The notes beneath the pieces were generated by a model. It had not been told where the DNA came from. It searched no databases and was given only the letters and a program-made list of their open reading frames with translations. A DNA stretch of 63,433 nucleotides, filler included, from Kipferlia bialata (lineage: Eukaryota): assembly GCA_003568945.1 (NCBI GenBank). It is 5 parts of 5 records of this genome, joined end to end, with 100 filler letters (N's around TTAATTAATTAA, not from the genome) between each part and the next. Parts side by side here need not be neighbours in the genome. Positions count along the whole stretch, not along the records: positions 1 to 16,307 come from BDIP01000615.1; positions 16,408 to 32,703 come from BDIP01000616.1; positions 32,804 to 49,098 come from BDIP01000617.1; positions 49,199 to 60,311 come from BDIP01000640.1; positions 60,412 to 63,433 come from BDIP01000713.1. One strand, given 5' to 3'. Made by a program: the position numbers and the translations under genes. The number at the start of each line of letters is the position of its first letter. Within the stretch, counting starts at the first letter, position 1. Of the stretch, positions 2,561-63,177 are shown in pieces.

Positions 2561-3877
2561 GTACCCCCGAGGCCTCTGAGGCAGATGCTCCCTCTGTGGC
2601 ACCCACACCTAGGGCAGCCGCTAAGCCAGTCACAGGTGGGGGTGTGGTGTGTTCTGTTGTATACTATGTGTATACATGTATACATGTATATGTATTGTTT
2701 TGCTGCCTTACCCCCCAGACTCCGACGCCTTCATATGTATCCCGACGTTCTTATATCCCTCTATGTTGTTTCAATCCCGTCTTACCCCCCAGACTCTGAC
2801 GATGAGTCCAGCGAGGCCTCCTCCGACTCTGACTCAGACGAAGAGGACAACCCAATGTCACTCCTGCTGGGACTTGGACAGGTACAGCATATACTTGTCT
2901 GTATGTGATTCAATTATCTGCCTTTTCAGTATCAGTATCAGTACCAAGTCAGTAGTGTCAGTAATACCATTGACTTTATCTCTTCCTAACCCACCCAGAA
3001 GTCAGCCCCGTCCACCCCTGCCAGACCCTCTGTGGAGGAGCCATCGGCCGCAGATGCTCAGCGCCTCAGGTATGCGCATATTTTAGGGTATATATGTACA
3101 ATATGAATGTGTAACCCCAGCCGTGACCTGCAGAGTGCCTCTCTGGACGAGATGTCCATTATTATACAACTAATGTATCAGTATACTATATAGTATATAT
3201 GCAAACATGCTCACTCCAGCCGTGATCTGCAGAGTGCCAGCCTAGACCAGATGTCCAGCATGGTGACTAGAGTGGCAGTGCAGAGCACAGGGGTCAAGGA
3301 CACAGGGGTGTCACTGCTCAAGGTGGGTGCATAGTATTGTAGTATTATAGTCCTTCTTGTTCGTGTGCCCCCCCCCCCCAAGGAGACGTATGTGTCATTC
3401 CTGGAGGTTGGCATGGCACTTGATACTAACAACCCCCCACCCCCCCCTTCCCCTCACCCCCAGCCCACCAAGCGCAGTGCCCTCAGCATGGACAAGGACG
3501 GGGTCAAGAAGGTATATGCAGATACTCACACACATATATGTATATATGCTGTCTGTATACATAGTATCCATGTATGAATGTATGTGTGTGCCCTCAGCAT
3601 GGACATATACGGGGTCAAGAAGGTATGGAGTGATAGTACACACACATATATGTATATATATCTATTTATACTAGGTATTCATGTTTGTATACGTATGTAT
3701 GTGTGTACTCAGCATGGACAAGGACGGGGTTAAGAGGTATTGTATTTGAATGTATATACAAATATGTATCTGGTGTCTACATATATTGTGGGTGTGCACT
3801 CGGAATGGAATTAGTCACTTTGCATGCTCACTCCCCAGGCCAAGAAGGCCAAGAAGACCAAGAGGTCCCAGAAGTGA
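470..3877 (+). CDS. Multi-exon K/A/E-rich coiled-coil protein with an acidic S/D/E tract and basic C-terminus (hypothetical)
   Basis: ATG at 470 (MAAENTPEGKG...FGAK). About 14 phase-compatible exons follow (AAREAAKIERERVAAEKAEAK; EDSDS...ESESES; ...KKAKKTKRSQK*). TGA at 3875-3877. Confidence 0.7.
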
Positions 3878-4009
3878 GGAGCCTAACACAGTCTATCAAT
3901 TTTGTGTGACAAGTGTGTCCGTCTGAGAGGTTGGCCAGTCGGTTTCTATATTGAAGTGTTGTTTCGTGTGGTGTCTGTCCATGTGTGTGACAGAGATTAA
4001 ATAGTCGTG

Positions 4010-4482
4010 TATAGACACTCTATACTATAGATTGTTGTTTCTTTATTGGCATATTTGGTAGACTGGTACTACTCATTACTGATGATCACTATTTCATACT
4101 TGTTTCCGGTAGGATGATACAACTAGCATAATCCAAGAAGGGGATATGCTGCGTCTACAGCACCCAAATGTCTCTTGGTCTATTGGCATGTGGTAGATTG
4201 GTATTCTTACTAATCATCACTGTCTGAGTATGAAACTACCTCTACAGCACCCCCAATGTCCTCTGAATTCTAGTAGAGTATTGCTTCTATTGGCATTTGG
4301 TAGATTGACTTCTTGCTGATCATTACTGTATGAGTGTGGTACTACATCTACAGCACCCCGATGTCCTCTGAATTCTAGTAGAGTATTGCTTCTATTGGCA
4401 TTCGGTAGATTGGTATTCATACTGAACATCTCTGTATGGCACTACAACGCTAATGCATCTACAGCACCCCGATGTCCTCTGT
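4010..4482. repeat. Degenerate tandem repeat (~107-nt unit) that includes the last codons and stop of the SDR gene
   Basis: CTACAGCACCCC(G/CA)ATGTCCTCTG recurs at ~4242, ~4348 and ~4459, and degenerately at ~4155. TATTGGCAT..GGTAGA recurs four times. Confidence 0.7.
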
Positions 4483-4819
4483 CCCTGTGTACTGGCCCTC
4501 CTCGTTGAAGAACCTGCCCTTCCTGGACCTGGCAGTCAGGAACTTCCACATGACCTGGGGTTAGGGTGGAGGTACTTATATACAAATGACACTGCACATA
4601 TAGATATATAACAGGGTACATGTACCTTGGGTGTGGTGAGCATCTTGTGGTATGTGCCGGAGGAGCCCTCCTTGGTGGCCCTGGGGTGAGAGGGGTATGT
4701 GTGTTGATGCTAAGGATACAATACACATACAAATCAATGCGACAGAAGGATGACACCATAGATACTGTGTGTTGTACAATTGTATGTACCAGATCCTTGG
4801 CACGAGGAATTCACAGAAT

Positions 4820-4862
<43 letters not shown>

Positions 4863-7256
4863 ATATACTAGAATACATATACCGGACAGTATGCACCTTA
4901 TCCTTGGCACGAGGAAGTCTGCCACTGAACTGGGCAGCTCAGCCAGGATGTTGAAGATGGGGACGGCCTCTGAACGGTTAAGATAGGATACATATGTCAA
5001 TACAAAGAGAGAGAGAGAGAGAAGCAGGATGTTGAAAATGGGAACAGCCTCTATCAATGAGAGAGAGAGAGATACATACAGAGCGAGAGAGAGAGAGAGA
5101 GAGAGGCCGCTCTGCCAGGATGTTGAAGATGGGGACGGCCTCTGGGGGGTTAAGATATAGGATACATATGTCAATACAAAGAGAGAGAGAGAGAGACGTG
5201 TTGGGTTAAGATGGGGACGGCATCTGCGGGAATGAGAAATATCGGTCATATAGTAGGATATGATACAAAGTGCACACATTTAGAGACACTTAGAAGTAGA
5301 ATTACACATATGCAAGAATCTGGGTTGAGATAGAGAATGGAGAAAAGTCTTGGAAAGTACCTGGTGTCACATCGTGCAACAGTAGGTCTGTCAGCACCAT
5401 ACCAGGGGAGATGGTGTGGATGCCAACACCAGTGCCCTGGGGTTGGAGGAGTGATATCGAGTAGTTACGTAACATATCGAGTAGAGACATAACATGTCTA
5501 GTAGAGACACAACAAAAGTACAAGGACAAGGACGCTTGGTCTCCTCATATACCATATATGATATATGTATGCAATGATACTTGGGACACATGCACTCTCA
5601 CCTTTGTCTCCTTGCCAAGGACCTTGGACAGATAGGGGATGGCGTTCTTGGAGACACCTGGGGTGAGAAGAGAGAGATGATATTTGATACGTGTAGTGAT
5701 ACATAATATACCACCCTTACTCACCGTATGTCATGTACCCAGCTGTCATCATTCCATTGGACCCAGCCCCATCCATGTTGAAGATGTGGCCATGGCTATG
5801 ATGAGATGAGTGTGGCACAACTTATAGTATACATAAATAGTATCAATACAACCACATACCCCTTCTCAATCATGTATGGCAGCACAGCCCTGCAGCACAG
5901 CAGAGTGCCAGTGAGGTTGGTCTCAATCACAGACTGGGGATTAGGGTGCAACAAAGAATACTATGTTGGATTATACACACTCTATACCTTGATCTGGGTG
6001 GGCTCTGTCTCCACAAAGACACATACAACTACCACATATGATATATATATACCCATATAGTCCCGTCAGTATAATAAACCTTTATCTGGGCGGGCTCTGT
6101 CTCGACTAGATTGACGTTGATGCCGTTGATACCGGCATTGTTGATCTGGGGGTGAGGGAGAGAGAGAGAGAGAGGGAGAGGGAGAGGGAGAGTCACAAAG
6201 AGAGGCAAGGGGGGGAGAGTTGATGCCGTTGATACCGGCATTGTTGATCTGGGGGTGGGGGAGAGGGGAGACTAGGACAAGCAGAAAGAGTGAGTGAATG
6301 GGTGTATAGGTATCTCATATGGGGGGAGTGGTTGTATTACCCTATAACTAAGAGAAGAGAGTCACTTGTAATATGTACAGTGTCCCTCACCCACATGTCT
6401 ATGCCCCCCAGCCACTGTGCTGCACTGGTGACAAGGGCGGTGAGGGAGGGGAAGTCTGAGGGTAAGGAGTGAATGAGAGAGAGAGAGAGAAAGAGGGAGA
6501 GGGAGAGAGGGAGGCGAGGGAGGGGAAGTCTGAGGGTAAGAAGGGTAGAGTGAATGAGAGAGAGAGAGGGAGAAGAGTGTGGAATAGTGGTCAGAAGGGA
6601 GGTGAGGAAGGGGAAGTCTGAAGGTGAGTGGGTGGGAGAGGAGAGGAGATGTCTTTGAAGAAAGAAATAGTCACAAGGTGAGGAGACATATATGAGGGGA
6701 ATATGGGGTGGGGGAGGGGGGGGAGGGGGTTGAAAAGTGAAGAATAATATACTCATTGTACATTACCCGTGACATCAGCCTGCATGACCCTTGCTCTGTC
6801 ACACACGTCGGGGTCAGAGAAGAGAGATGCCTGGGGGTAGAGATGACTAGTGCTGCCAGATAGAAATAAATATGGGTCCACACCTGCATTTCTGCCACCT
6901 TCCTCTCACTATAGAGAGGTATAGCCACAACAGTACCCACAATGCATATATATACTATTACACATAGTACTGGTATTACACACCTGCATTTCTGCCACCT
7001 TCCTCTCACTCCTGGTAGTAACAACCACAGAGTCACCCTCCACCAGGAACCGTCTGCAGAGGGCAAGGCCAATGCCCCTGGGGGTTAGGTGTATAAGGTT
7101 ACTGTGATGTATACTATAGTCCATCAGTTATCAGAGGGGATGAGAGAGAATGGCGGGGGGGGGGGGGGGGGAGGGCGTAATCACAATACAGAACACGCCA
7201 CTAGTATGTCACGTGTGAGTATAATACCTTGTTCCTCCTGTGATTACTACTCTCAT
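4459..7256 (-). CDS. Short-chain dehydrogenase/reductase, NOL/NYC1 (chlorophyll b reductase)-like
   Basis: The spliced product has MRVVITGGTRGIG (TGxxxGxG), INNAG, TNLTGT, HIFNMDGAGSNG, YxxSK, HTISPGMVLTDLL, FNILAELPSSVADFLVPRIR and ends ...EDIGVL* (TAG 4461-4459). Confidence 0.85.
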
Positions 7257-7537
7257 GTTGTTCGTGTGAATGTGTCTGAGTGAAGAGAGACATGTCAAAC
7301 TCACAATCTGACACCGAGGAAAAAGGGACCGGGCTGACAAACACCAATGCCGCAACATTGGGCGTACTCTCTTGACTGCGTGCTCTCTTCCAGCACTGCT
7401 GGTGTGGCAATAATAGTCAGAGTATTACTGACTTGCGCAAAAGGAGTGGAAATACTGGTGGACCGCTGCACACAGAGAGAGGAAACCGCATTGGGGTCCC
7501 TGACCAGTGAAGTGATAGCACCGACTTCGATTAGGAC

Positions 7538-10500
7538 ATGCCCCCCTCTGCCACCCCTAGACCATGCGTCACAGAGGACATCCCACAGCTGTGCAGGTAT
7601 GTGAGATGCACTATGTATGACTGTTAGTGTCAGTAACGGTGTATACATATCGGCAATGTAGGTGTGTGGTCAATCCAATCCATTCACCGTTCTCTTCACC
7701 TCTTAGCCCCGGTCTCGCACATCCTCCCTCTAACATATACTGTGTCTTTTGTACATACCTGAGTTAGGATATCCCCCCCCCCCCCCCCCCATTACCCCAG
7801 TTGCTACACTATAGGAACATATGAATGTCATTCTTCTGTGGACCTCTTCTCTGCCCTCACCCCACAGGGACATGGTATGTGCCCAGGACCTGTCTCTGAC
7901 TGCAGCCCTTGCCATGTCCTGCATCACAGTGGGAGACACATATGCACCAGGTATATATAGAGTGTATAGTATATATAGTATATACATGTNNNNNNNNNNN
8001 NNNNNNNNNNNNNNNNNNNNNNNNNNNNNNNNNNNNNNNNNNNNNNNTATGTATATATATGCAGCCCTTGCCATGTCCTGCATCACAGTGGGGGACACAT
8101 ATACACCAGGTATACATAGATAGTAGGGTACATGTGTTCATCTACTCCCTCTCTGACCCCAGGTGTTGCCCTGTCTCTGACTAGGAGTGACCCAGACATG
8201 GCAGAGCTGGTCAAGGTATGTATGTAATATACCTCGTCAAGGTATGGGATGGATCATGTATACATATAGCACCTATCTATGAATACCGGTACAGGAGTGA
8301 CCCAGACATGGCAGAGCTGGTCAAGGTATGGGGTGGAGTATGTCTCTATACCACCTGTATATATGTAAACCCTGGTGGATATGAGATAATAATTGAGTGG
8401 GTACCTGTACTACCGAGAGTTCTTTCCTTACCCTAGAGCATGCGCAAGAGATATGGCGTGCTACCCAGTGTCACAACACCAGACTCAGACTCTATGGAGG
8501 AGAGAGGGAGAGAGAGAGAGAGAGTGGTGACGAGGTCATCCTCCTGTCAGACTGACCCAGTCAAGGAGAGGGAGAGGGAGAGACCCACGGTGGCCAGGAA
8601 GATACCAGGTGCCATCATATATAGTACATCGGTATTTGTATACAGTACACAACATATATATACATGATACTGACCCCCCAGGTGTCCCTGTGCACACCCA
8701 GACTGACCCCTTACCTACACCTGCCCCTGTACACCCACCCTTATACAATAAGGGCAATGGAGGTGGGGGTACCTGGGGCATGGCTGATACCATAGTGCCT
8801 AAGAGTGGCTCCACCCCTGTCCTAGATCTGGAGGATGATGAGTTTGCCATGGACTTTGGGGATGATAGCGTGGGTGCACCCAAGGCACCCTCCTCTACTG
8901 TACAGAAGGGTCCACCCAAGCCCTTCAGGGGTAAGCCCGCCAAGCACAACCACCACGAGAGGCAGCAGCACACGGTGAGTGTGTGTTTGATCTATGTCTA
9001 TCCTCATCACTATATATATATGTATTCTATTTGTCACGAGAGGCAACAGCACACGGTGAGTGGATATGGGCTCTGAGTATACATGCACACATATATATAC
9101 ATACATATTTATGGGTGTGCATGTCTCACCCTCAGATTGGCCTGCAGAGTGCTGCTGAGCTAGGGGGGAAGGCAGCCAAGAGAAAGAGCAGGTGATTACT
9201 TGTGATTACATATCAGTCTACTCTCTCATTGGTGTCTGTGGATAGGATATATGTCATATATAGAACACCCATCCTTCTGACCCCCAGGGCCACGAGTGCC
9301 GCTGCCCTGGGTCTATCGGCCAACACCATACCAGGTAGGCGTATCAGTTTGTAATGTATCGTGATATTTCTCAACCATATACCAACTACTGATATGCAAG
9401 TGTTCTCAGAGCCTCTAGTAAGTGAAACTCAATGCAGTTCTTTGAGACCAATATACATAATTCTATAGTATATACTATAGTATATAGTACAATAGTAAAT
9501 GTATCAATTCGTCACACCAGGTGCCCGTAAGAAGAAGGAGCAGGAGGATAAGAAGAGGAAGAAGAAGGAGGGTGATAGCGACAAGGTGGGGTGTACTTAT
9601 CATATAGATATATATATATATATACTAATGTATATATCATATCGAGCAAATTTATATATTTATGTATATGAGACGAGTATATATATATATATATATATAT
9701 TGAGTTATGCAATACTACATAAATCCCACTGACTGCCAGGCCTCTGAGGACCAGCAACTGTTGGACACCATCAGAGAGAACATAGTCCAGGACACAGGGG
9801 TTACACTAGATGAGGTTGTGGGGCTGAGGTGGGTACATCACAGCTACATCCTTATATATATACATATACTCTCGATATGTGTCCAAACTATCCCTTACAC
9901 TAGAGTGGCCAAGGAGCAGCTGAACGAGGCCCTTGTCATATTCAGATATATATGTGTTATAGNNNNNNNNNNNNNNNNNNNNNNNNNNNNNNNNNNNNNN
10001 NNNNNNNNNNNNNNNNNNNNNNNNNNNNNNNNNNNNNNNNNNNNNNNNNTATCACTATCTCTCACCCTCAGAGTTGCCAAGGAGCAGCTGAACGAGGCCC
10101 TTGTGATGCCCATCAAGTTCCCAAACCTCTTTGGCGGGAAGCACGGCAGGTGGGGGTTCATAGTATATGCACTATAATATATATATATTTATATATATAT
10201 ATATATGTGTGTGTGTATATATATATAGTGGAAGCACGGCAGGTGGGGGGTTAGTGCTATACACATAGTGTAGCTATATACCCCTCCCTAATGATCAGGA
10301 CACCAGCCAAGGGCATCCTGCTGTACGGACTGCCGGGAACAGGTATGGACGGGATTGTATATACATATATATATGTATATACTTGCATGTACATGTCTTA
10401 TAGATGCCTGCCTGACCCAGGCAAGTCCTTCCTGCAGTCTGTGTAGTATCCATGTTTCTACTATATTGTGAATATATACAATACTGATACCCCAGGCAAG

Positions 10501-13081
10501 TCCTTCCTGGCAGCTGCCGTGGCAGGCCAGATCAACTCGACATTCTTCTCAGTGGTCTCATCATCCATCGTGTCGAAGTGGCAGGTGTGTATATATGTAT
10601 GTATATATATATATATTGTTTGTATATCCCCATTATGATATGTGGTGTCATCATCCATCGTGTCGAAGTGGCAGGTACGCATATTATCAGCATCTACCGT
10701 ACCGTTAGAGTAGTTGTCTGCATAATGATATGTGGTCTCATCATCCATCGTGTCGAAGTGGCAGGTGTGGACTATGTATATTTACAGCTTGATACTCCCA
10801 TGTATATCGTGTAGTTTACCCACTCATCCCAGGGCCAGTCTGCCAAGCTGATCAGGGCCCTCTTTACAGAGGCCAAGGCCAGATCACCCAGCATCATATT
10901 CATCGATGAGATAGGTATTATTTAATATGTCATGATATATTCCCACATATTGATTGTACTGATCTCAGACTCTCTGTGCACCTCCCGTTCCTCCTCTGAT
11001 AGCGACGCATCGCGTAGAATCAAGACAGAGTTCCTGACCTGTATGGACGGTATGTATATAGTGTACACTATATATCTTAGTGTACCAGCATGACTGTCGT
11101 TCTCACACCCCAGGCGTGAGTGCCAAGGCCGATGGGTCCAAGGTGCTGGTGCTGGCAGCCACCAACTACCCAGACGCCCTGGACTCGGCACTTCTGTACG
11201 TAGTGTGACTCATACACAAACACATATATTTATCTTACTATATAAATATATATATTCTTATTCTTCAATATATATATATATATATGTATATATATTCATA
11301 TCCACCGTAGAGCATTTCAATCTCACATAGAGATTGTATCTGATATATTGGAACCTCTCACCCCTAGGAGACGCTTCAGCAAGAGAATATGCATCGACCT
11401 GCCAGATCTGGAGGTGAGAGTTGGTACTTCCTGTATCTGTGGTGTATACAATCTTCCGTATGGCTTCACGAGGTCTTTTGTGTCATGTTTCTAGCCTGAA
11501 TGGAGGACGTCGTGTGTACCTATTATTGCACTGCACTTTGTAGTGTAATCCTGCCACCAACCCTCAGGCCCGTTATGTCCGCCATGTTCCGTCTGTGTCT
11601 AGTCCACCAAATACTCCTGTATATATGTAGAGTATAGTAACATTGTATTAAACTAACCCTCAGGCCCGTGCCGCCATGTTCCGGCTCAGGTTGATACACT
11701 ATATACTACATGTATAGTGTATACATATATATAATACACACAATACATAAGTATATATTATTTATCTTATCCTAGGCCCGTGCCGCCATGTTCCGTCTGA
11801 GGTTGAGTGCCCAGTCAGATGCAACCCCTGAGCAGTACACACAGTTCGCACAGGCCACAGAGGGTATGTATATATATATTTATATGAACATCTCTATACA
11901 TATATAGAAATATACCAGTACACTCAGTTCGCACAGGCCACAGAAGGTATGTACCATGTGGTGTAGTAGTGTACATATGTGTATACATATTGGGGGAGAG
12001 AGAGAGACAGAGAGAGACAGAGAGAGAGAGAGTACGCTCAGTTCGCACTCTTAACAGAGGGTGGGTGCACTATTATGCATACCATACATACCATATACAT
12101 AAGTATGTATATGTCAAGCTCCGCTCCGATTCCAGGCTACTCTGGGACATTGAGCATGTGCAAGAATACTATTGATTCTGTTATAGTAACTGATTTTACT
12201 ATATGTTCGGCATATATCCATGTGGTTCAAGCTCCCCTCTCACCCCAGGCTACTCTGGGAGTGACATTGAGCATGCGGTGTACTTGACAATATGACTCAT
12301 ATGAGTATATGATATTCATTATATGTTGTCATTCATGTATACTTTCATGCTCTCATATTCCAGGCTACTCTGGGAGTGACATTGAGCATGTGTGCAACGA
12401 TGCCCTAATGGAGCCAGTCAGAGATATGAGGGAGTGCCACTGCTTTGCACTGAGGTACGTTTAGTGAGTATTACATGCTACTCTGTGATGACTCTCTCTG
12501 GGTTCGTGTCCCTCTGTCTCCAATATCTACACCAATGTATACACCTTGTATACTATGTCTCACCCACAGGCATGTTCTGTATGCTATGCTATCTCCCTGT
12601 CCATTTTCCGCAAAGCAGCGCAACTCGTCCAGCATATACGTAACCATATATTGTATACTATAGGCTCACCCCCAGGGATGGTCTGTATGAGATGGCAGAC
12701 CCCGCAGACCCAGACGCATGGTGAGCATATGTCTTTGTATATATATATATATATATATACGCATATTGATTTACTTATACAGCTATATACTCTCTCTCTC
12801 GCTCCGTCTCTCTCTCGCTCTCTATACGTATATGTATATATATATCCCTCACCCTCAGTGAGGTATCCATGATGCAGCTGGATGGAGACGTGAGACCACC
12901 ACCCACAACAGCTGAGGTATCGAGGCGCATATATCTACTATGTATATACACTATATATATGTATATATATCGGATATGTCACCCTCTCACCCAGCATGTC
13001 CTCAAGGCCATATCTCGGACCAAGTCCTCTGTGGCATCAGCAGACAGACAGAGGATAGCACAGTTCAAACAGACACACTGA
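7538..13081 (+). CDS. VPS4: Vps4-like AAA+ ATPase with a long low-complexity N-terminus
   Basis: Spliced exons give TLDEVVGLRVAKEQLNEALVMPIKFPNLF, Walker A GILLYGLPGTGKS, pore loop VSKWQGQS, Walker B IIFIDEID, RRIKTEFL, AATNYPDALDSALLRRF, GYSGSDI, a beta-domain-like insert and a Vps4_C-like end (RTKSSVASADRQRIAQFKQTH*). The start codon is inferred. Confidence 0.8.
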
Positions 13082-42730: not shown

Positions 42731-42821
42731 AGGGGGAAGGATTCTGATGTTAGAAAGTGAGTGAAGAGACACAAAGACATGTTTGTGAAATGAGAGAATT
42801 GAATGCATACATCCAGTGAGC

Positions 42822-49293: not shown

Positions 49294-52200
49294 GAGGCTC
49301 TCCTTTACATTTGTTACGGCCTCTTCCTGCTCTTCGGAGTACTCCCAGCCTTTACCAACACGTACGTTGTATTTAAAGATATGTACACCGCAGTGTCTGG
49401 AGACCTAGTTAATGATAGTCATAGCGCTGTTTCATTATTGTTGCGGCCTGTGGGTCTCTCACTGCAGTTTCTGGGGCCTGTTCTTCTGGCGCACCATGAT
49501 TGGATTCCCAGCCGGCCTGGCATTCCCCATCATCATCGGTACGGTCTCTCTCTCTCTCTCTCATTGCTAAACTACTGACACTCTCTCTGACCCTCCAGAC
49601 ATGATGTCCCAGCGCTTTGAGCCTGTCCAGAGGACCAAGGTCCTCGGCTGGTGCTCCCTCTCTCTCTCCTCCCAGGTACGCAGGAGTCTTGGGTGTTCGG
49701 ACTTACTATTGTGTGAATTTACCTACTATTGTGTGTAACTATTCGACTCTGCCACCAACGGGTCTCTTATCGTTCTCATACACAAGGCAGGTATATATGT
49801 GCATTATAAGCAGTATATACATACCTTTAGGGTAGACAGTAACCCTCACCCCCAGGGCTTTGTGTACTCCCTGCTGGGCGGATACCTTGCCAGGACCGAC
49901 TACCACCTCGTGTTCTATGTGCAGCTGGTAAGTTATATAGTGGACACACACCTTAGTGGTCTGAATACAACAGCATATATTATATATATTATATATATTA
50001 TATATTCTTCTTCTATGTTCCCACCCCCAGATCATTGCCCCCATCATGCTCTTTGGCTACATTGTGGGTCCCCTCAAGGCACTGCCCCCTTCCCCATCCT
50101 TCTCGGGAAGTGACATAGGTAGGCATATATATGTCTCTCTCTATGTCACTCTCCATCACTCCGTTTACCCGTCCTCTCCCATGTATATGTATATCTCTCT
50201 GTATATTGTATTCATAATAGTATGAATAGAGATATCACTCCCTTACCCCAGTCCTTGCCCCTGTGAGCGAGGAGAGCAGCAGAGACGCAGTGGCCGTGGA
50301 GGCAGACCTCGAGGTATTGCATGCAGTGTACAAGTTACAAATATGGTACTTTACACTCTACTCAGTCGCTAGCTGTACAGGGTCTGGCTCTCTTAGTACC
50401 ATACTCCGAGTACTCTCTCTGACCCATTAGGCTGACCTGGAGGCCGCTCTCAACGCTGAGGACAGTGACAGGCAGAGAGAGCCAGTCTGTGACGTCCCTC
50501 CCTCCCCCTGTGCAGAGGCAGGCTACCAGAACGAGCACATCGAGGCACATGATACCGCAGAGGGTGTGTGCGAGTACGACGACGTCTGTGACGAGGTTGA
50601 GGTTGTTGTGTGCCCCAACTGCAAGGGGGGTGCACCCATGCCCGTTGATACAGCCCTCTCTGCCCTCGAGGGCAGCACCCCTCCCTTCCCCCTGGGCAGT
50701 GTCGTGTGGTATGCCGCCATGTACACTCTGACACAGGGCACATGGTACGGGGGACTCTGTCTCTACAGTACCTTACTCTCTTTCTCTTCATCTTTCTTCT
50801 AGTCTCTGTCCCTCTCTGACCCCAGGTACCTCCTCCTAGTCCTGTCCTCTCTCCACCTGGCCGAGGACCTCGAGATCGACGACACATTCATCGCTGGTGG
50901 GTGCATCATACCCCATATACACCCCTTGTATTTCTAGTTGTAACCCTCACCCCCAGGCGTGGCCTCTGCCTCCAACACCATCGGTATGATGGGAGGGGCT
51001 GCCATCGTGTCTGCCATGGTCAGGCACTTCCCAGACGCAGCAGGTATATATACACATTATATATATATATATTGTGTATTATATAGTACAACTATTGGTA
51101 TATATATATGCCATCGTTGAATACTATGCATATTGTGTCTGCCATGGTCAGGCACTTCCCAGACGCAGCAGGTATTAATTGTATATATATATACATATAT
51201 AGAATATAATAGTATGTATATTGTATATATATTTACTTATATATACCATCCTTGAATACTATGTATATCGTGTCTGCCATGGTCAGGCACTTCCCAGACG
51301 CAGCAGGTATATAGATGTTTATGTATGTACACATATATCTCTCTCTGTCTCCCAATTCCCCCCTTGTTTCACCTCAGTTCTTAGCCGTCCAAGCGATATA
51401 CATATATATATATATGCGAGAATTATATATATATATGTGTATGTGTATAATATTACTACTAATTCTTATACCCTCGTTGAATGTTTCACCTCAGGCCCCA
51501 TGTACTTTGCCGTCCAAGCGATATACACACTCACATATATATATGTATATTTCATATATATATATGTATGTGTATATTATTACTATTAATTCTTATTCTT
51601 ATACCCTCGTTGAATGTTTCACCTCAGGCCCCATGTACTTTGCCATCCAGGCTACCGGTATCCTCCTCGGCTCCACTGTCAACCTATACGTGGTTATCCT
51701 AGGTATTGCTCTCCTACCATGTCTCTATTCTCATCATGTGCTACGATATATATTCATATATATGCAACCATATATACCAATACATTTTTCCATACCAATA
51801 TACTGACCTAGTATATATATACCGTTCTGACCCTAGGATGTGTTCTCTGTGGTGTAGGGGCCGGTGGACTCCTGCCCCTGCTGCTGGGAAAGGCCTCTAG
51901 CTACCACCCCAGGTATTTAGCATGTTCAACTGTACACTTTCCCCAACTCCATTCTGTGACAAGTTGTGCCTAACCCTCAGCCACACTGCCACAGCTGGGT
52001 CAGTGTTCCTGGCCATGCAGAACACAGGTACGCGAGCTCTATCAATCGAACCTCCCTCTCTATTTCACACATACACTATAATTATATTATAATCCCTGTG
52101 TACGTCCAGCGATCTCTATCAATGGAATCTCCCTCTATTTCATACCTATATTTATATAAGAATATATATAAGAAATACCTATGTTTTCTGTTGACGTCTA

Positions 52201-52687: not shown

Positions 52688-55600
52688 ATGCCTGTGGCCA
52701 CTGCACAGCCTGATGTCAAGTTAACAGTGGGAATTGACTTTGGAACTTCGCACAGGTGGGTGACTGGTTAATCGGATTAGCTTAATCCTATAGTCACTCT
52801 TGCATCATGTCATTACCGTGTATACACTGACACTAGTGGCTATGCCGTCTCCCATGTCGCCAAGCCTGAGGAGGTCGAGGCCTTCTACGACTGGCCTGGA
52901 CAGCCGGCACCCTATGCAAAGGTTAGATGTACTGCATTATGACTACACTGTAGACTCCTCCCCCCTTGTCACTGCCTCTGACCTCTCTCTCTCTCTCTCT
53001 CTGACCTCAGACACTGACCGCTCTCTTCTATGAGCAACAACCAGATGGTACCTACAAGGCCACATCCTGGGGATTCCAAGCATGGTACGTAGCATTCTTT
53101 GTGTCAATGTCTGTGTCACGTTGTCACTTTGACCAATCTCCTCAGTGTCACTAATCATGCTTGTAGTATAGTGCCCATCTCATGTCAGGCTGCGTCAGCG
53201 AGAGATTAGCTGTAGCACCACGTCTCTGTATGTGAGCAGGTTCAAGCTCTTGCTGGATGAGTGTGTGGCTGGGGGTGAGGTTGGGCTGATGAGCAAGGAG
53301 CGGCCACTGGATATCATTCGCATACCACCAGGTTAGTATAGATGAACAAATATTTACGTATTACCCCGTTTCTCTAGTATTGCTGCATTCATCTCGTAGT
53401 GACTGCCCTATCACATCTCTGACACTAGGCCTTACTCTTGAGTCTGTAATAGGCGACTACCTCAGATACCTCAAGCAGAGTGTGGAGACAGTCATACGGA
53501 AGCAGGTGAGTATAGCAGTAGTATATATACGTACCAGTCTACTCTCCAACATATACCTGAGCCCCCCCCCCCCTTCTCACCCCAGTACGATGGCATCCTC
53601 ACACTGGACAATGTACAGTGGTGCCTGTCAGTCCCAGCCATGGTGGGCATATATATATATGAGATATGTATATGGTACATATATTCACTTACGGTATTTA
53701 TGGGGTACCAGCCATGGTGGGTATAGTGTATAGATATATATTGTATAAACCCTTGCATTATTTATGGCCTCCCAGTCATGGTGGGTGGCAGTACTCTCTG
53801 GCACATGTATTACAGTCATAGACCAAGATGACTAATTACCAATGGTAATACTATTATCCCCCTCAATCAATGTACTCCTTTCTACCCCCAGTGGACGGAC
53901 AGAGCCAAGGCCCGCATGCGTCAGGCTGCCTACATTGCAGGCATGATACCAGACATAGACAGTCACAGGTACACGTGTACATAGTATTTCATACTATACA
54001 ACCTATATGCTACTATGTGATCTTACGCCAGGCTCACCTTCACCCTTGAGCCCGAGGCCGCAGCTGTGTACTGCAGCCACAACCGTTCCCAGTACCACTT
54101 TGGCAAGGGCCAGAGCTTCATGGTGGTGGACGCTGGCGGGGGGACAGTCGACCTCACGGTGCACAAGGTGTGTCTACAGTTGTATATATTTTCATTTTAC
54201 TCTTACCCCTAGGTGACTGAGTCAGGTATTTCTAAACTCCTAAACACTATCTACCATTGTTACCACTATCTTCCTGCCCCCAGGTGGTCTTCTCTACATA
54301 TGTATATTTCGCATTGACTTCCCACCCCCAGGTGACTGGGTCCGGTGCCATGGAGGAGGTGACCAGGGGCCATGGCAGGTCGTGTGGGGCCACCTATCTC
54401 GATGTCGAGTTCCTCAAGTTTGTGAGGGGGAAGCTGGGGGAGGAGGTATGTATCCCATTAGAGTGTATACACTAGTAGTGGACCAGTGCTCCCATGACTC
54501 CCTCACCCAGTACTACTCTGAGTGGTGCAGCAAGTACCCGTCAGAGATGGCTGTCCTGATGTCAAGGTGCCTTGGTATTACTAGGCCTAGTATATATAGA
54601 GAGGCGGCCTAGTTGATAGTTGGCATGGTTCCTTGCTGTGTTACACTGACTCCAGCTGGGAGAAGTGCAAACGCAACTTCAGTGGGCCTGAGGATGAGTC
54701 CATGTTCATAGCAATGCCACCCAAGATGTACAAGAGGCTGCCGGTGGGGGTCGAGGACAGGTATATCATTCATAATGTTTACCTACTCAGTCTGTAAACC
54801 AAGTATAGTACTATGGTATTCCCATCCTAGTATGTCTCCTCTGACCCCAGGCTGACTGACGAGCAGGATGGCTATGATGACTGTCTAGTCGTCACTGGGC
54901 CTGAGGCAGTGGCTGTCTTTGATCCAGTTGTGGCCAAGGTATGTGTATACATATGTAAATGAACATATATGGATCATATATAGATATATAGATCCAGTGG
55001 TGTCCAATGAATGTATCTTCCTCCTAATCCCTCTCGTCTTCCCTTACACCAGGTCCTGGGTTGCATTGAGGAGCAGATGAAGAGACTGAAGGAGGAGGGA
55101 GGGGACACAAACAGACAGGTGACTGGCTGTCGTAGTACATGTATATTATATTACATGTATATACTTCCAAGAAGAGACCCCCACCAAACACTCCATTGGT
55201 TAACGTATACAATACATCTGCTACTACTTATATCGTTCTAACACAAGCTCAAGGCTATGCTGCTTGTTGGGGGATTCTCTGCTTCCCCCTACCTTATCAA
55301 GAGGGTGAGGGAGGTGTTTGGTGATAGGTCAGAGTGCATCATTAACCCACCACAGCCAGGTATATATTATATATATATTATATATACATTGTATGTCATA
55401 TCATGTGTATTTCTTCAGACAGCAAGACAGTGGAATCAGTAGGTATGTAAACTGACTACAAACCCATCATATTATTCTTTCAACTATCTTGTCTCACCTC
55501 TAGGCGCTGCTGTGGTGGTTGGTGCTGTGCACTATGGAAGCAACCCCTCTGTCATCAAGGCCAGGATCAGCAGGTCAGGGGTCATATTCAATCAGTATCT

Positions 55601-56103
55601 CATTGATTCACCAGTTGGCTCTTTGTTCTCTTGTGTACCTGTATTGAATGGTACTTAGTTACTCATCCAGGTTCACTTACGGCTTCAAGGGCGGGGCTGT
55701 CTACAACCCCCAGAGACCAGGCCACAAGAGGAGAGAGAGCCAGGCGAGCTGGGACGAGAGGGCCCAGGCCTTGAGGTTCAAGGGTGTATTCAACCCAATC
55801 ATTCGCATGGGTGACCGTGTGCCATGTGACCATACCGTAGTCCAGACGGGACGGAAGCCCATCTACGCCGACCAGACACGGGTGTCGTTCCAGCTGTACT
55901 GCTGTGCCGGGAGTCCCTTCTTTGTGACGGAGGATGGTGTGCAGCAGTTGGGTGAGAGGGTTACAGTTACAGTGCCAACAGAGGAAGAGAGACACGTTGA
56001 CCTGAGGTTCCTCTTTGGCGACACCGAGTTCCGAATGGTGGTCACACCCCGTGACAAGTCGTGCCCTGCTCTAGAGACCACAGCAAAGTTCCAGAGCAAG
56101 TAA
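52688..56103 (+). CDS. HSPA12: HSPA12-like atypical Hsp70
   Basis: VGIDFGTSHSGYA, WPGQPAPYAKT, RFKLLL, DYLRYLK, QWCLSVPAMWTDRAKARMRQAA, LEPEAAAVYC, FMVVDAGGGTVDL, CGATYLD, LLVGGFSASPYL, SRFTYG, FLFGDTEF. TAA at 56101-56103. Confidence 0.9.
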
Positions 56104-57186: not shown

Positions 57187-57227
<41 letters not shown>

Positions 57228-58820
57228 CAGAGTGGATGGCAGACAGGGTGGACAGGGAGGAGATCTGGGGTTATTGAGTGAGAGATACACAGTGAAGATA
57301 GGGAGGAGATAACGAGGGAGGACGATATACATTACGCAACACAGAGTAGAGAAGAGTTGCGGACGAAGGAGAGAGAGCAAATGCATACCTTGTTCTCTGC
57401 GAGTGAGAGTATCATGAGCCTGGGCAGCACAAGGGACCGAAGGAGAAGGACCAGTCCCTCATCGTCAAGGGCATTGCCAGATAAGTCAAGGGTGGTCAGC
57501 TCAGAGAACACACTGGGTGGCCTGTCTTCAAGTGCTGCGGCATCAGCAGCAAGAGACCCAGCTAAAGGGTCTGGTACCACATCTCCCTCTCCCTGTATGA
57601 CTCCTGTCTCTGGCCCAGTCTCTGATACCGGCACACTCCCTAGCCACATGAGACCATCCCTCTGGTGGCTGACATCTAGCTCTCTGGGGGTAAGAGGGAG
57701 GGAGAGGGTGTTTGAGTGAAAGAAACAGAGAGAGGAAGGAGTGGGAGGGAGATGTGTACCTGAGGCATGGCAGAGAAGACCAAGAGTGTAAGTGTCGGTG
57801 AGCTACTTATCCACACACACGCACACACACACTCACACATATATATATATACATATATATATATATATGTATGTATGCATGATTATATCTCATATAAATA
57901 GTGTACCTGAGGCATGGGAGAGGAGGCAGGCTCACTGTCCTCATCGAGTTGTAGCCTATCCTGGATGTGAGAGGGGGAAGGCCCATAGGTGATGAGCAGA
58001 GAAATATATTGTCTGGAATATTGAGAGCAGGATAGGATATAGGCTGACCGATGACACAGAGACAGACACACGTACCCTACCTCAGTATGGACAGTCTCGG
58101 TGTGCATATGAATACAGAAGTTGTAGGTAAAGTACATATACATTGTATACTATACAGGATATACCTCAGTATGGCCAGTCTGGGTGTCAGATGAATATGG
58201 AAGTTGTATATAGTACACTGTTCTATATGTTATACAAGCATACCTCAGTATGGCCAGTCTGGGTGTGAAGAGTGACAATGGGTATGTGGCCAGGCTGTTC
58301 TTGGACAGGTCCAGCTCAATCAGGTTGGGGAGGTGGGCACCGGAGACCTGGGGTAAGTATTGTACATATTTCTAGGAGAAAGTGATAGGAGAAGAGGGGG
58401 GGGGGGGCATCCATCACATGGCGACAGAGACCAGACATGTATGGTAGACCATGTGTGAATTGAACCTTGAATACATATCGGGAGACTGTGTATGATCAAC
58501 CAGTCTCTACATATACCTACCTCTGTGAATGCGTTGTCGAATGCCATCAGGCTGGTGAGTATGATATATATATATATATACACCATACACTATAAATAAT
58601 GATATGGACTAACACTCTATACACCTCTGTGAATGCGTTGTCGAATGCCATCAGGCTGGTGAGGTTGGGGAAGAGAGAGAGACAGTCCAGGGGGCCAGAG
58701 AGAGACGCATGGGACAGCATGCCAACACGCACTCGGGACCTAGAATGAGATAGTAGAGAGAGAGAGAGAGAGAGATGCATGGGACAGCATGCCAACACGC
58801 ACACGGGACCTAGAATGAGA

Positions 58821-58851
<31 letters not shown>

Positions 58852-58956
58852 TGTTACGCATGGGACAGCATGCCAACACGCACTCGGGACCTAGAATGAG
58901 ATAGTGGGAATATAGAATATAGAGTTCTTCTGTATATTGGGAGAGGGGGGGGGAGT

Positions 58957-58987
<31 letters not shown>

Positions 58988-59208: not shown

Positions 59209-59245
<37 letters not shown>

Positions 59246-59306
59246 ACCCCGTACCACTTATTCATTCGTTCATGAGTTGACAATCTCTAAGTCCCACTAA
59301 CTCCAG

Positions 59307-60259: not shown

Positions 60260-60459
60260 CTGAGGTGAGGAATGGGGGGGGGGGGGGGGGGTTTTTTAGA
60301 CCCTATTAAATNNNNNNNNNNNNNNNNNNNNNNNNNNNNNNNNNNNNNNNNNNNNTTAATTAATTAANNNNNNNNNNNNNNNNNNNNNNNNNNNNNNNNN
60401 NNNNNNNNNNNGGGGGGAAGAGGGAGGGGGGGGGGGGGGGGGGGGGGGGGAATATATAC

Positions 60460-61020
60460 CTTTTCAGAATCACACTCTGCTTCTCTCTCGCACTTTTCTG
60501 GAATCCCCCTATCCACAGCGCCTGTGTTGGATGAATAAGTGTAGAGGGGGGGGGGATATAGAGAGTAAGAGATTGGGGCACACTAAAGTTGATGTAAATG
60601 TAATGGATCTATAATGTATAACGTGCAGATAGCTGAGAGGGAGGCAACTGACAGATGAGGAGAGAAACTGATGCCTGGTTCTCCCGTATCTGCACCAGTA
60701 TCAGTACCCTTAGAATTATATATGAGTATAATAGTTATACATATGTGTACTCACTGAGTGTATGGGATACAGATACATTGTACCTGGTTCTCCCCTATCT
60801 GCACCAGGGCGTCTGTGTACCCTATCCTCTCCCAGCCCCTGACCTCACAGTCACTCACATACAGACCGGGGGGGCGGGGCATATGTGTGATTAGAGAGTC
60901 TAGACACTGGATAGCTGGACCCTTATTTGGTTCTTCAAAAAGGGTGAAGTGCGTGTACATGATTATCAATATACTCAATATATTGATACCTTGATTTACG
61001 TACCGGACAGCAAATACCAT
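60460..61020 (-). CDS. 5' exons of a probable paralog of the neighbouring Kelch-like gene
   Basis: MVFAVR|...GWERIGYTDALVQIGENQ|ALWIGGFQKSAREKQSVILK. The ALWIG exon matches ALWIGSF at 63177 in start and phase. Confidence 0.5.
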
Positions 61021-61285
61021 GCGCTGGGTAAGTAGGATTTACATTCATTTTAGGACGAGAAATCAGTGACTATTAGTCACCCAAAATCAATAGTGCATCG
61101 AGCACAACCACCTATCTGTATCTATTGAACAGCTCATACACCCACATGTATACATATACCCAATGCTGTTAATCCATCCCTGCAGATACCTGGTCATCCC
61201 CCCAGGCAGCACTACATCCACCAAGACCAACTGGTGTATGATTATACTATGCACATATACATATCCAGTAGTCTCTGATCTATTA

Positions 61286-63177
61286 CTACTCTATTGCACC
61301 ACATCCATCACCCCCAGGCAGCACCACATCCATCACCACTAGCCTGTTGTCACTATCCACACCTAGTGCAACACCGTCCGCCATCATACATACGTAGTCA
61401 AAGGACCTGTTACATACACACATCTCCACGCACTCTCCCGATACATCACTGTAGCATATCGCACACTCATCTTGGTGGGTCTTGTTGTTAAATACCACGA
61501 CGTGATGGCTAGATGCAGCCAATACTGAAGCATCTTGCACCACGTCTGGAGGGAGGTTAGGGTACTCCCTACATATAGTGCCTCCTGTTTTACCAAATAC
61601 TATGGGTTTTGAGTGCACTACAGGTCCCGTTAAAGCGTTTGGATCCCCTGGAGTATACACAAAGTGTGCTACCGACCTCTGGAAGCAGTTCGCGACTGTT
61701 GCACCCACAACTGAGAACAGGTGTACATTGGTTCCGAGGACGGCTACTATAGGGGCGCTGCATCTCTTCATAGTATCCGCCAGAGATACACTCTGTGGAA
61801 CCGATCCTGGCTCCTTAATCGCGCCCCATTCTGCCTCTCTCCCAAACTCACCCTCTGGTACGAAGACGTACATGCATGGGCCGTACGGGTTCTCTCGGAT
61901 TCCCAACACATATAGAGTGTCGTCAGCGACAAACGCAACCTGGTCTAGGAAAGCTGACGATTAGCAAAAAGTCGACCACCCACTCATAAATCCCGTTGAA
62001 ACAGTACAATAGCGTGACTGACGCTTCCCTTCCCAAGTAGTAAGTTCAGTGTACATGGAGTCCACGTCCCATGTCCCTAATCTCCTCTGTAGTAGTGTAA
62101 CTCTCCCATCTATATTACAAACATACTTATACACAACCATAGTGTGTTGTAGCGTACCTGGTATCCAAGTGCCATCACTAATCTCATCTTCCTTCCCCTC
62201 GTTGTCTCCCAAGCAGTGCCACTCTCTAGACACAAGGTCCAATACCCATACATCAGCCAGATACTCCATCATCATGTTGTCACATCCTCCAATGACATAC
62301 ACCTTGTCCCTCAGTCTTGAGTTAGACACAAGAGCACATACATATAGTGCAAATGGAATATGTATAGGCAACAAATATTTCTATCTTGGTCTCACAGCCT
62401 CCAATGACATACACTTTGTCCCTCAGCCTAGGGTAAGACATTTACACCCAGATATATAGTATACATACATAGGATACACAGTATATACATATATACATAT
62501 CATCATGTCATCACAGCCTCCAATACCTTATCCCGCAGCCTAGGGTTAGCCCTATATACACGCATATATGTAGTATACATACATACAGAAGAGTAGTAGA
62601 GAGCAGTATAGAGCTGGAGACACACAGATAGATAGAGAGGGCGAAACAGCATGCCTCTGTTGGAGGTTCACATTGCATCAATACTAATACTACTATGTAT
62701 ATAGAAACATGGCAGAATACCTAGCGACTGAGAACGAGTTTGCACTGTAACTCATTGGACACTCTATGTGCTCAGTCTCTATGACCATAGCATCAGAGAC
62801 TGGGTCATATACCCTGGGGCATAAGGATATGAAGAGAAATCTATATATTATATATAATTAAATTAAATATACTTATAAGTAATATAATATATACATATTT
62901 ACATACATTAGTAGTCAAGCGTCAGTAACTCTGGTCATAGACTCTGGGGGTGAGGCAAATTGCAAATGCAGCCAATATGAGAGAGAAGAAGATAGACGGA
63001 GCGAGAGAGTTACAGACTTAGTCATATCACTAATACAAGACCATCTAGAACCGAATATGTAACCACATATCCCTGTACTGTATATGGAAGCCAAGAGAGG
63101 GAGAGATACATATACCTTGTAATTATCATACACCGCTTCTTCGCATTCATTGTGCAGAAACTCCCTATCCACAGGGC
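61286..63177 (-). CDS. Kelch-type beta-propeller protein (5' truncated)
   Basis: ALWIGSF...|VYDPVSDAM...SVAR|LRDKVYVIGGCDNMMMEYLADVWVLDLVSREWHCL...WIP|AFLDQVAFVADDTLYVLG... All phases are compatible. Confidence 0.7.

What the first reader, a model, noticed from the sequence alone, without database searches (positions are those of the whole stretch)
3111..62545. Intronic 'exon echoes' diverge from their exons mostly at synonymous sites
Seen: introns in all five scaffolds contain 20-50-nt truncated copies of the adjacent exon end. Each copy runs into TA-rich intron-like DNA without a second splice site, so it should be non-coding, yet the differences mostly preserve the protein. Examples: 3121 vs 3220 (GAC/GAT, CTG/CTA, and TCT/AGC, both Ser; one E/Q change); 5026-5050 vs ~4945-4970 (GCT/GCC, GTT/GTC, ATT/ATC); 9904 vs 10072 (GTG/GTT, GTC/GTG); 11665 vs 11776 (CGG CTC/CGT CTG); ~11917 vs ~11833 (ACT/ACA, GAA/GAG); 18697 vs 18899 (GCT/GCC, CTT/CTG, GAA/GAG); 20068-20118 vs 19946-19996 (6 of 8 changes at third positions); ~23717-23747 vs 23628-23658 (GGT/GGC, GTC/GTG); ~62395-62428 vs ~62280-62315 (AAA/AAG, GGC/GGA). 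These pairs were picked by eye. Inference: the echoes were or are under coding selection. Possible explanations are (a) continuous exon turnover, (b) capture from divergent alleles by unequal crossing-over, or (c) real use through direct-repeat-mediated RNA or DNA excision that yields chimeric exons. I know of no named system for this.
Basis: partly seen in the sequence, partly recalled or inferred. Interest (0 to 1): 0.9.

Follow-up and report, generated by a model that had tools for sequence, protein, structure and literature searches.

The report
Retired exon ends in Kipferlia introns
A third of the introns examined in this stretch of the free-living protist Kipferlia bialata hold a short copy of the neighbouring exon end with its splice site, spliced out wherever the mRNA could be checked yet differing from the exon mostly at silent codon positions, likely because the copies come from recombination with other, divergent working alleles, which would make one genome a record of past genetic exchange and exon-end turnover.

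Summary
In 17 curated gene pieces, 55 of 162 introns carry echoes: 5-59 nt of an exon end plus one splice site, in units of about 100 nt. DNA contigs join echo and exon at full depth (10 of 29 pairs lie in the eight contigs listed), and an RNA-like run splices echoes out. Across 64 exon ends, 64 of 101 differences are at third positions; pN/pS is 0.17-0.23. The right null is 0.5, not 1, and it is rejected (p<=2e-4); lax end-trimming gives 0.33-0.43. Echo splice signals score near real ones, while flanking intron DNA is near saturation. Present use is unlikely: 71 of 76 echo sites would give a stop or frameshift. Best reading (0.55): tandem duplications whose exon part came from divergent functional alleles by misaligned recombination. 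A toy simulation fits only with exchange between haplotypes at 8-14% silent diversity. No second strain was found, so this is inferred. Junction-spanning duplications are known (human F7, CBS), and the scan noted similar echoes in a sea-urchin gene (unchecked); the scale and the coding signature were not found in print.

The parts
470..3877 (+). Gene A, 15 exons, charged coiled-coil protein of 395 aa; 5 echoes
   Evidence: three introns confirmed by RNA-like contig
1101..1124 (+). Acceptor-side echo of exon 1201 (AG lost)
   Evidence: one DNA contig with its exon
2026..2050 (+). Acceptor-side echo of exon 2149, 25/25 identical
3121..3158 (+). Acceptor-side echo of exon 3220; 6 differences, 3 silent codons incl. 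Ser TCT/AGC, one E/Q
   Evidence: cis in DNA contig 2568-3438; spliced out
3588..3735 (+). Two donor-side echoes (3588-3622, 3708-3735) of exon end 3511
4150..4370 (-). Three copies of the last codons and stop of gene B in its 3' UTR (starting 4370, 4265, 4172); no splice site involved
4459..7256 (-). Gene B, 12 exons, short-chain-dehydrogenase-like (label recalled from its motifs, no call); 9 echoes
   Evidence: introns confirmed
4793..4809 (-). Donor-side echo of exon end 4897
5025..5221 (-). Three acceptor-side echoes of exon 4969; the nearest has 3 private silent changes, the next matches the exon there
   Evidence: spliced out
5988..6011 (-). Donor-side echo of exon end 6080
6219..6910 (-). 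Four echoes in gene B: 6219-6248, 6508-6529, 6588-6617, 6884-6910
7538..13081 (+). Gene C, 21 exons, AAA ATPase with a weak Vps4_C match; 14 echoes
   Evidence: exon sums 308 and 1041 nt equal the RNA-contig offsets
8060..9055 (+). Donor-side echoes 8060-8109 (across an N gap), 8293-8325, 9035-9055
9904..10764 (+). Echoes 9904-9936 (across an N gap), 10230-10242, 10421-10434, 10642-10674, 10732-10764
11579..12275 (+). Echoes 11579-11595, 11664-11694, 11916-11944, 12031-12060, 12136-12164 (4-nt deletion), 12249-12275
   Evidence: first three in one DNA contig with their exons
13652..13670 (-). Acceptor-side echo of the last exon of gene D (13440-15940)
18691..18803 (+). Two acceptor-side echoes of exon 18899 (outside the counted set; the intron starts in an N gap)
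18899..23284 (+). Gene F, 14 exons seen, coiled-coil; 22 echoes in 12 of 13 introns (19091-22996), incl. 20067-20118 with 8 differences
   Evidence: no read data laid here
23717..23917 (-). Array of three acceptor-side echoes of exon 23658 (gene G); two silent changes shared by all
25769..25787 (+). Donor-side echo in gene H2 (1 of 13 introns)
29273..29297 (-). Donor-side echo in gene I (1 of 18 introns)
35197..35322 (-). Two copies of the last codons of gene K in its 3' UTR (starting 35322, 35236)
35384..42113 (-). Gene K, 20 exons seen; 16 echoes, incl. a four-copy array 39692-40027 and 41096-41154 (59 nt, 7 differences, 5 silent codons)
42210..42754 (-). Array of five increasingly diverged acceptor-side echoes of exon 42113, two with 3-nt indels (outside the counted set)
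45590..45781 (+). One donor-side and one acceptor-side echo in gene piece M
51135..51516 (+). Three echoes in one intron of gene O; 51267-51306 is 40/40 identical to the exon with an unrelated flank
52688..56103 (+). Gene P, Hsp70-family protein identical to a K. bialata record; one counted echo, 54991-55007
57225..58890 (-). Eight echoes in gene Q (57225-57264, 57300-57310, 57760-57775, 58081-58104, 58165-58187, 58521-58559, 58767-58809, 58856-58890)
60675..60698 (-). Donor-side echo in gene piece S2 (GT changed to GC)
62385..62538 (-). Two acceptor-side echoes of exon 62315; four silent changes, one 7-nt deletion

Best explanation
The echoes are real tandem units of about 100 nt that hold one splice site and a short stretch of exon and are spliced out wherever RNA was checked, and their exon part and splice signal likely derive from working exon ends of other, divergent alleles through misaligned recombination. 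Shown: the anatomy, cis linkage, removal from the main mRNA, the silent-site bias, working-type splice signals and near-saturated flanks. Inferred: between haplotypes whose exons still match but whose TA-rich introns do not, a break within about 60 nt of an exon edge is repaired by invading the homologue's exon, copying across the splice site and 50-100 nt into its intron, and joining back without proper annealing (or by offset exchange between homologues). The incoming end would take over and the old end would be pushed into the intron; later misaligned conversion may reload echoes from yet other alleles. Exon and echo then differ as two alleles do, plus a little decay. Only events with a single splice site, and a spacer that reads as intron, would survive; the spliceosome must use the site nearest across the exon.
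For: pN/pS 0.17-0.23, 0 of 2000 bootstraps >=0.5; binomial p 1e-4 to 2e-7 against the 0.5 null, 1.6e-4 with trinucleotide context kept. Per echo, 0-fold sites differ at 0.025 (36/1432), 4-fold sites at 0.143 (53/370), flanks at roughly 0.6-0.8 substitutions per site. Where a nearer echo differs and a farther one matches the exon, 13 of 16 changes are silent (12 if one multi-base block is recounted), which exon-lineage change cannot easily give. Silent differences are balanced in base direction (19 towards AT, 21 towards GC), replacement ones lean to AT (17 against 7), tallied. Echo splice sites score near real ones (4.8 vs 6.2; 9.1 vs 10.2 bits); a branch motif is in 25 of 44 echo acceptors (real 33 of 44, background 5.6%), 8 times as a different valid motif. 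Echo blocks are at most 59 nt even beside exons of 546 and 814 nt; the intron left outside the array is of ordinary length (91.5 vs 90 nt); copies also occur at 2 of 10 gene ends tested, where no splicing is involved. Toy simulation: exchange between haplotypes at theta 0.06-0.15 and c/mu 40 gives pS 0.11-0.17, pN 0.03, ratio 0.16-0.27; same-chromosome conversion gives 0.47-0.73. Context: metamonads lack NHEJ and fornicates replaced Rad51A by two Dmc1 paralogues (PMC8516963); Dmc1 tolerates mismatches (PMC8682777); crossovers prefer exons in a hypervariable fungus (PMC4209137); ends from two homologues can join and two-chromatid breaks give tandem duplications in mice (10.1101/2020.06.23.168138).
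Against: No second strain or allele was found and the sequenced culture shows one variant site in 15.8 kb, so the required 8-14% silent diversity and genetic exchange are unobserved. Flanks are 4-5 times more diverged than 4-fold sites, which single capture explains only if introns evolve much faster. Spacers after working donors are far more TA-rich than the flank after the echo donor at matched positions (0.239 vs 0.132, n=31, p 5e-6; no such difference at acceptors), so they are not ordinary allelic intron starts and need a filter or another origin. Flank and exon-part divergence are uncorrelated (rho 0.06). With lax trimming pN/pS is 0.33-0.43, not bootstrapped. Replacement changes are not significantly conservative (p 0.19). 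The near absence of units under 70 nt (1 of 89) is unexplained. The simulation has 3 replicates, N=400, and models conversion, not capture at birth.
Confidence: 0.55

Rival explanations
1. One or a few ancient hybridisation or genome-doubling events supplied the divergent donor (a homeologue); exchanges left echoes, and the second gene set was then lost.
For: Gives the same coding signature and saturated flanks; echo density differs strongly among genes (12 of 13 introns in F, 1 of 18 in I; chi-square 50.5, df 10, p 2e-7), as regional tracts would give.
Against: Arrays of 3-5 copies with different private silent variants need several donors; echoes run from 0 differences in 40 nt to 8 in 52, a wide spread for one event; no second copy of the Hsp70-family exon among the 166 candidates of 252-2000 aa scored.
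Confidence: 0.15
2. Old same-chromosome tandem duplications whose exon part is kept alike by gene conversion with the own exon while the slippage-prone intron part escapes; the silent bias comes from selection against echoes that would damage the exon on conversion, or from a higher silent rate in exons.
For: Some flanks are clearly homologous (31 of 87 with signals; 18 of 87 without); young expansions with 84-91% identical flanks exist; TA-rich spacers would diverge fast; needs no sex.
Against: Simulated cis conversion, second-order selection included, gave ratios 0.47-0.73 and never pS near 0.15 with pN near 0.03 (6 settings); no decay gradient along echoes (0-fold 0.026 vs 0.029) and ends are sharp; different-but-valid branch motifs are not expected.
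Confidence: 0.15
3. Echoes are in use now, through rare splicing, RNA template switching or DNA excision between the direct repeats that yields chimeric exons, and are selected for that.
For: Splice signals are near working strength and GT/AG is kept in 76 of 87; no stop codon among the changed echo codons; contigs drop rare forms (tool note).
Against: RNA-like contigs match the exon alleles with 0 other letters and skip the five echo-bearing introns they cross; echo bins have depth 0; exon sums without echoes fit exactly over 18 exons; 71 of 76 echo sites give a stop or frameshift and only 2 echoes have a plausible partner site; clear 4-, 7-, 4-, 2- and 1-nt deletions in echoes; DNA contigs cross echo and exon at full depth; copies also lie in 3' UTRs.
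Confidence: 0.1
4. Assembly artefact: alleles or strains concatenated by the assembler.
For: Short-read draft assembly; two pairs span N gaps; the DNA run may be the source of the assembly and so is not independent data.
Against: Separately built contigs hold echo and exon in one piece with 0 differences for 10 of the 29 pairs in the region laid (only 8 contigs are listed), at depth 405-455 like the 3.5-kb contig at 442; one variant site in 15.8 kb; truncated copies in arrays of 3-5 are not what two alleles give.
Confidence: 0.03

Closest known systems
Human F7 intron 7 37-bp VNTR (PMC1557585, abstract)
   Same: Tandem unit spans an exon-intron border; downstream copies of the donor stay silent and the most upstream is used.
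   Different: One locus, near-identical short units; here a third of the introns examined, both donor and acceptor sides, ~100-nt units, saturated flanks and a silent-site bias.
Human CBS 844ins68 (PMC1334203, passages; that it duplicates the intron 7-exon 8 junction is recalled)
   Same: An insertion at an acceptor is skipped by use of the other site, giving mostly wild-type mRNA, and the skipped copy carries a different base.
   Different: A single polymorphism whose skipped copy bears a missense change; no array, no coding-type divergence.
Tandem duplication and interhomologue end joining at meiotic double cuts (10.1101/2020.06.23.168138, passages)
   Same: Breaks on two chromatids give tandem duplications, and ends from two homologues can join, with aborted gap repair: the proposed route to copies of different allelic origin.
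   Different: Shown in mouse germlines, mainly without ATM, at kb scale; interhomologue events shown there were deletions; breaks and junctions were not tested here.
Exon-biased crossing-over in hypervariable Schizophyllum commune (PMC4209137, passages)
   Same: With 14% between parents, 51 of 71 crossover regions lie in exons, where similarity is high.
   Different: Faithful crossovers, no duplications reported in the passages read; diversity measured there, only inferred here.
Intron gain by internal duplication of an AG|GT exon segment or by break repair (summarised in 10.1101/051292, first half read)
   Same: Short direct repeats at intron ends from local duplication or repair.
   Different: Those create a new intron between two exonic copies; here an existing intron grows and one copy lies wholly inside it.
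Concerted evolution by gene conversion between duplicates (theory recalled; simulated)
   Same: Constrained parts stay alike while fast flanks escape.
   Different: One partner is non-coding, and the cis form does not reach the observed pN/pS.

Membership tests
Splice-junction-spanning tandem duplication (F7 IVS7 / CBS type) | Direct copy includes part of an exon and one splice site, next to the real junction | tested here: met
   89 of 95 echoes within 8 nt of the junction; GT/AG in 76 of 87
Splice-junction-spanning tandem duplication (F7 IVS7 / CBS type) | The duplicated site is silent; the exon-proximal site is used | tested here: met
   RNA-like contigs, genes A, B, C only; rare forms not visible
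Splice-junction-spanning tandem duplication (F7 IVS7 / CBS type) | The intron part of the unit is a recognisable copy too | tested here: inconclusive
   Above the unrelated-intron 95% level in 31 of 87 with signals and 18 of 87 without; donor spacers differ in make-up
Duplicated (cassette or mutually exclusive) exons | Copy has both an acceptor and a donor and keeps the frame | tested here: not met
   2 echoes with a plausible partner site, one in frame; 71 of 76 sites give stop or frameshift
Introner or transposon insertion with target-site duplication | Inserted pieces at different loci form a sequence family | tested here: not met
   61 spacers, 1820 pairs: the three best matches inspected are TA-microsatellite only; window only
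Introner or transposon insertion with target-site duplication | Short target duplication that decays without regard to codon position | tested here: not met
   Blocks up to 59 nt; 4-fold sites 0.143 against 0-fold 0.025
Intron gain by tandem duplication of an AG|GT segment | Both copies stay partly exonic and a new intron lies between them | tested here: not met
   Echo lies inside a pre-existing intron of ordinary residual length
Allele concatenation by the assembler | Copies on separate haplotypes at half depth, with variant sites around | tested here: not met
   not shown for the two pairs across N gaps
Inter-allelic unequal exchange or conversion | Copy and exon differ as two functional alleles (pN/pS well below 0.5, signals kept) | tested here: met
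Inter-allelic unequal exchange or conversion | Echo variants segregate in working exons of other isolates; high silent diversity | not testable with these tools
   No other strain found
Inter-allelic unequal exchange or conversion | Microhomology or templated filler at new junctions | not tested
   Needs young or de novo events; flanks here are too diverged

The most novel reading that the evidence does not exclude
K. bialata renews its exon ends routinely: mismatch-tolerant repair between highly divergent haplotypes, in a cell without NHEJ or Rad51A, installs a foreign exon end and retires the old one into the intron, so that a large share of its introns are stacked archives of former alleles, a main source of intron length, and standing decoys that a reduced spliceosome ignores by reading exon-sized, TA-bounded units.
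Probability: 0.35. Interest if true: 0.88.

Novelty: new variant of a known kind. Interest (0 to 1): 0.72.

Why it matters
If the copies come from other alleles, one homozygous genome yields population diversity and evidence of genetic exchange in a free-living fornicate. Each echo adds about 100 nt (intron medians 90, 192, 270, 391, 549 nt for 0-4 echoes), a measurable route of intron growth. Thousands of natural decoy sites of near-real strength would be a ready test of how a spliceosome with 87 of 174 surveyed proteins and no snRNA candidates found (PMC6679479) chooses sites. Practically, echoes trap gene finders: my own permissive predictor called many as exons.

Tried and rejected
No whole genome is held, so everything rests on one 63-kb window and prevalence cannot be extended genome-wide. 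No RNA holder on record was listed; run X2 is RNA by guess, though its contigs skip GT-AG introns. Reads were laid only on 400-16250 (both runs) and 2990-6850 (X2); genes F-S have no read support and their frames rest on open reading and GT-AG. Other strains: two metagenome scans found none; the adenosine deaminase exon had no relative above 45% among the 120 best of 4316 hits. A self-trained gene finder merged genes and took echoes for exons; replaced by hand curation. A decay gradient along echoes, predicted by repeated partial renewal, was not found (p 0.06). Conservative replacement changes: not significant. Echoes upstream of start codons: none in 6 tested; downstream of gene ends: 2 of 10, one of the ten mis-set by a few bases. 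An element family among spacers: not seen. Mutation spectrum or context as the cause of the silent bias: rejected. The 105-nt skip at 4255-4361 in the RNA contig is taken as a collapse of a UTR repeat (ends AT..CG, 42 letters fit both sides), not as echo excision. Literature: searches found no description of this in K. bialata or of a silent-site bias in such copies; the library lacks most subscription papers and I read no supplements, where intron statistics of the genome paper could bear on novelty.

Full report
What the window is. Five scaffolds joined by N-flanked linkers from an intron-rich eukaryote. The last exon of gene P is 100% identical to a Kipferlia bialata Hsp70-family protein, the only hit among 166 candidates, and my 16-exon model equals that protein letter for letter. 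K. bialata is a free-living fornicate with 124,912 GU-AG introns in a 51-Mb short-read draft (PMC5874029, passages and section 12). No whole genome was held, so all counts are from this window.

Gene models. A self-trained predictor was too permissive, so I curated 17 gene pieces with 162 introns, all GT-AG, with open frames after trimming two overlong last exons. An RNA-like run confirms them where laid: the offsets inside one 2166-nt contig require 308 and 1041 nt of exon, exactly the sums of 3 and 15 modelled exons without any echo; a second contig shows ten GT-AG joints in genes A and B, five of them across echo-bearing introns (150, 327, 216, 391, 146 nt), with 0 other letters in the eight pieces listed and depth 0 over the echo bins.

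Observation. Aligning each exon end to its own intron, at a score reached by 0.86% of 1742 non-cognate pairs, gave 95 echoes in 55 of 162 introns (about 3 expected by chance); intron medians are 90, 192, 270, 391 and 549 nt for 0-4 echoes. I dropped 6 hits more than 8 nt from the junction and kept 89 at 64 exon ends. Acceptor-side echoes lie upstream of their exon, donor-side echoes downstream; GT/AG is kept in 76 of 87. Trimmed blocks are 5-59 nt, median 24, units median 100 nt. They are genomic: eight listed DNA contigs hold echo and exon together for 10 of the 29 pairs in 400-16250, without differences, at depths like the longest contig, and only one variant site appears in 15.8 kb. That run may be the source of the assembly. 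Two pairs span N gaps and are not shown in cis.

The silent-site bias. Counting each (site, allele) once, 101 differences fall 22/15/64 on codon positions 1/2/3; pS 0.13-0.16, pN 0.028-0.030, ratio 0.17-0.23 by transition weighting, bootstrap limits 0.11-0.33. Stricter end-trimming gives 0.12-0.16; laxer gives 0.33-0.43, because it runs into spacer DNA that is at background identity within a few bases, but it is a caveat. That null is rejected too (p 1e-4 to 2e-7; 1.6e-4 keeping trinucleotide context). In arrays, changes in a nearer echo where a farther echo matches the exon are 13 silent to 3 replacing (one of the 13 belongs to a replacing block), so echoes themselves carry silent variants. 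Against a strong reading: replacement changes are not significantly conservative (p 0.19), and several echoes have frameshifting deletions, so they do decay.

The flanks. A young duplication should copy the intron as faithfully as the exon. It does not: 19 echoes identical over 19-40 nt have flank identity 0.56-0.88; 31 of 87 flanks beat unrelated introns with signals included and 18 of 87 without; simulation puts the median near 0.6-0.8 substitutions per site, against 0.143 at 4-fold and 0.025 at 0-fold sites. Identity falls to background 7 nt past the donor; echo sites score 4.8 against 6.2 and 9.1 against 10.2 bits and equal or beat the real site in 19 of 40 and 21 of 44 cases; 25 of 44 echo acceptors keep a branch motif, 8 as a different valid one, 12 having lost it. 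This is the profile of two working versions of one junction. Ends are sharp and there is no gradient of decay. Spacers after working donors are much richer in TA than matched positions after echo donors (a first, unmatched comparison pointed the same way), which the allele model does not predict without a filter.

Mechanism. Shown: anatomy, cis linkage, splicing-out in three genes, coding-type divergence. Inferred: the donor of one copy was a functional allele. In a toy Wright-Fisher model (N=400, 3 replicates, 12 settings), conversion on the same chromosome gave ratios 0.47-0.73, while conversion between haplotypes at theta 0.06-0.15 and c/mu 40 gave pS 0.11-0.17, pN 0.03 and ratios 0.16-0.27; at theta 0.02 it gave 0.56-0.68. 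I therefore commit to misaligned recombination between divergent alleles (0.55): homology exists only in exons and signals, so a break near an exon edge is copied from the homologue into its intron and rejoined as a duplication, retiring the old end. This fits the short echoes beside long exons, the ordinary residual intron, copies at 2 of 10 gene ends, and near-far toggling. It is in keeping with the loss of NHEJ and of Rad51A, with two Dmc1 paralogues, in fornicates (PMC8516963, passages), Dmc1's mismatch tolerance (PMC8682777, abstract), exon-biased crossovers in Schizophyllum (PMC4209137, passages) and interhomologue end joining in mice (10.1101/2020.06.23.168138, passages). None of these was tested in K. 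bialata, and no second strain was found. Capture at birth and later reloading cannot be told apart here. Rivals: ancient hybrid donor 0.15, cis conversion or rate differences 0.15, present use 0.10, artefact 0.03.

Splice-site choice. Use of an echo site would give a stop or frameshift in 71 of 76 cases, and only 2 echoes have a plausible partner site. The mRNA uses the upstream donor and the downstream acceptor, that is, the site nearest across the exon; upstream-first scanning as shown for F7 (PMC1557585, abstract) explains donors only. Exon-sized recognition, TA-rich spacers read as intron, or decay of mis-spliced RNA are the candidates (inference).

Comparison and novelty. Silent duplicated junctions are known from single human loci (F7; CBS 844ins68, PMC1334203, passages; its junction-duplication structure is recalled), and intron gain by duplication is summarised in 10.1101/051292 (first half read). 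This is the same kind of object, but not a duplicated exon, an introner or a newly gained intron (membership rows). Six searches found no report for K. bialata or of the silent bias; listings only were seen for most hits, supplements were not read. The scan's index holds no note on this genome and one unchecked AI note on similar echoes in a sea-urchin gene (e1-7787398), seen after I had found F7; it is a lead, not support. Verdict: real, non-random, a new variant of a known kind; interest 0.72.

Noticed in passing
window, donor-side spacers (e.g. 19273-19325, 51044-51134): DNA just after a working donor that has an echo is much more TA-rich (0.239) than after the echo donor (0.132) or in echo-free introns (0.149); no such contrast at acceptors. 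May be a filter for silencing, a fragile sequence, or filler.
   Followed up: partly
window, all echo arrays: Units are 70-213 nt in 88 of 89 cases (median 100) and spacers are 46 nt or more in 87 of 89, close to the shortest intron seen (52 nt); UTR units are also about 86-105 nt.
   Followed up: partly
window 16712-17584 (+): Adenosine deaminase with an 873-nt uninterrupted first exon in a genome of 50-100-nt exons; best relatives 40-45%, mixed bacterial and protist. Possible lateral gene or retrocopy.
   Followed up: partly
window 3837-4552: Genes A and B converge with overlapping 3' UTRs that assemble into one RNA contig.
   Followed up: no
window 43709-43970 and 47623-48789 (-): Two almost intron-free genes with tandem 23-residue repeats, MORN-like by recall (translations; no family call made).
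   Followed up: no
window 28873-32657 (-): Gene I holds a segment resembling an adenylate/guanylate cyclase catalytic end (motif recalled, no family call); only 1 echo in 18 introns.
   Followed up: no
window 61190-61343 (-): A strongly diverged pair (about 12 codons, most changes silent or conservative by eye) left out of the counts because the gene model there is uncertain.
   Followed up: no
window 46324-46358 and 46165-46221 (+): Possible GC donors in gene piece M; model not resolved.
   Followed up: no
window 3756: Only variant site in 15.8 kb: the DNA contig reads T where the window has A; probably an assembly error.
   Followed up: no
window 52032-52140, 793-902, 53634-53790: Local repeats with little or no exon part inside introns scored as echo-free; 4 of 108 such introns have one.
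   Followed up: partly
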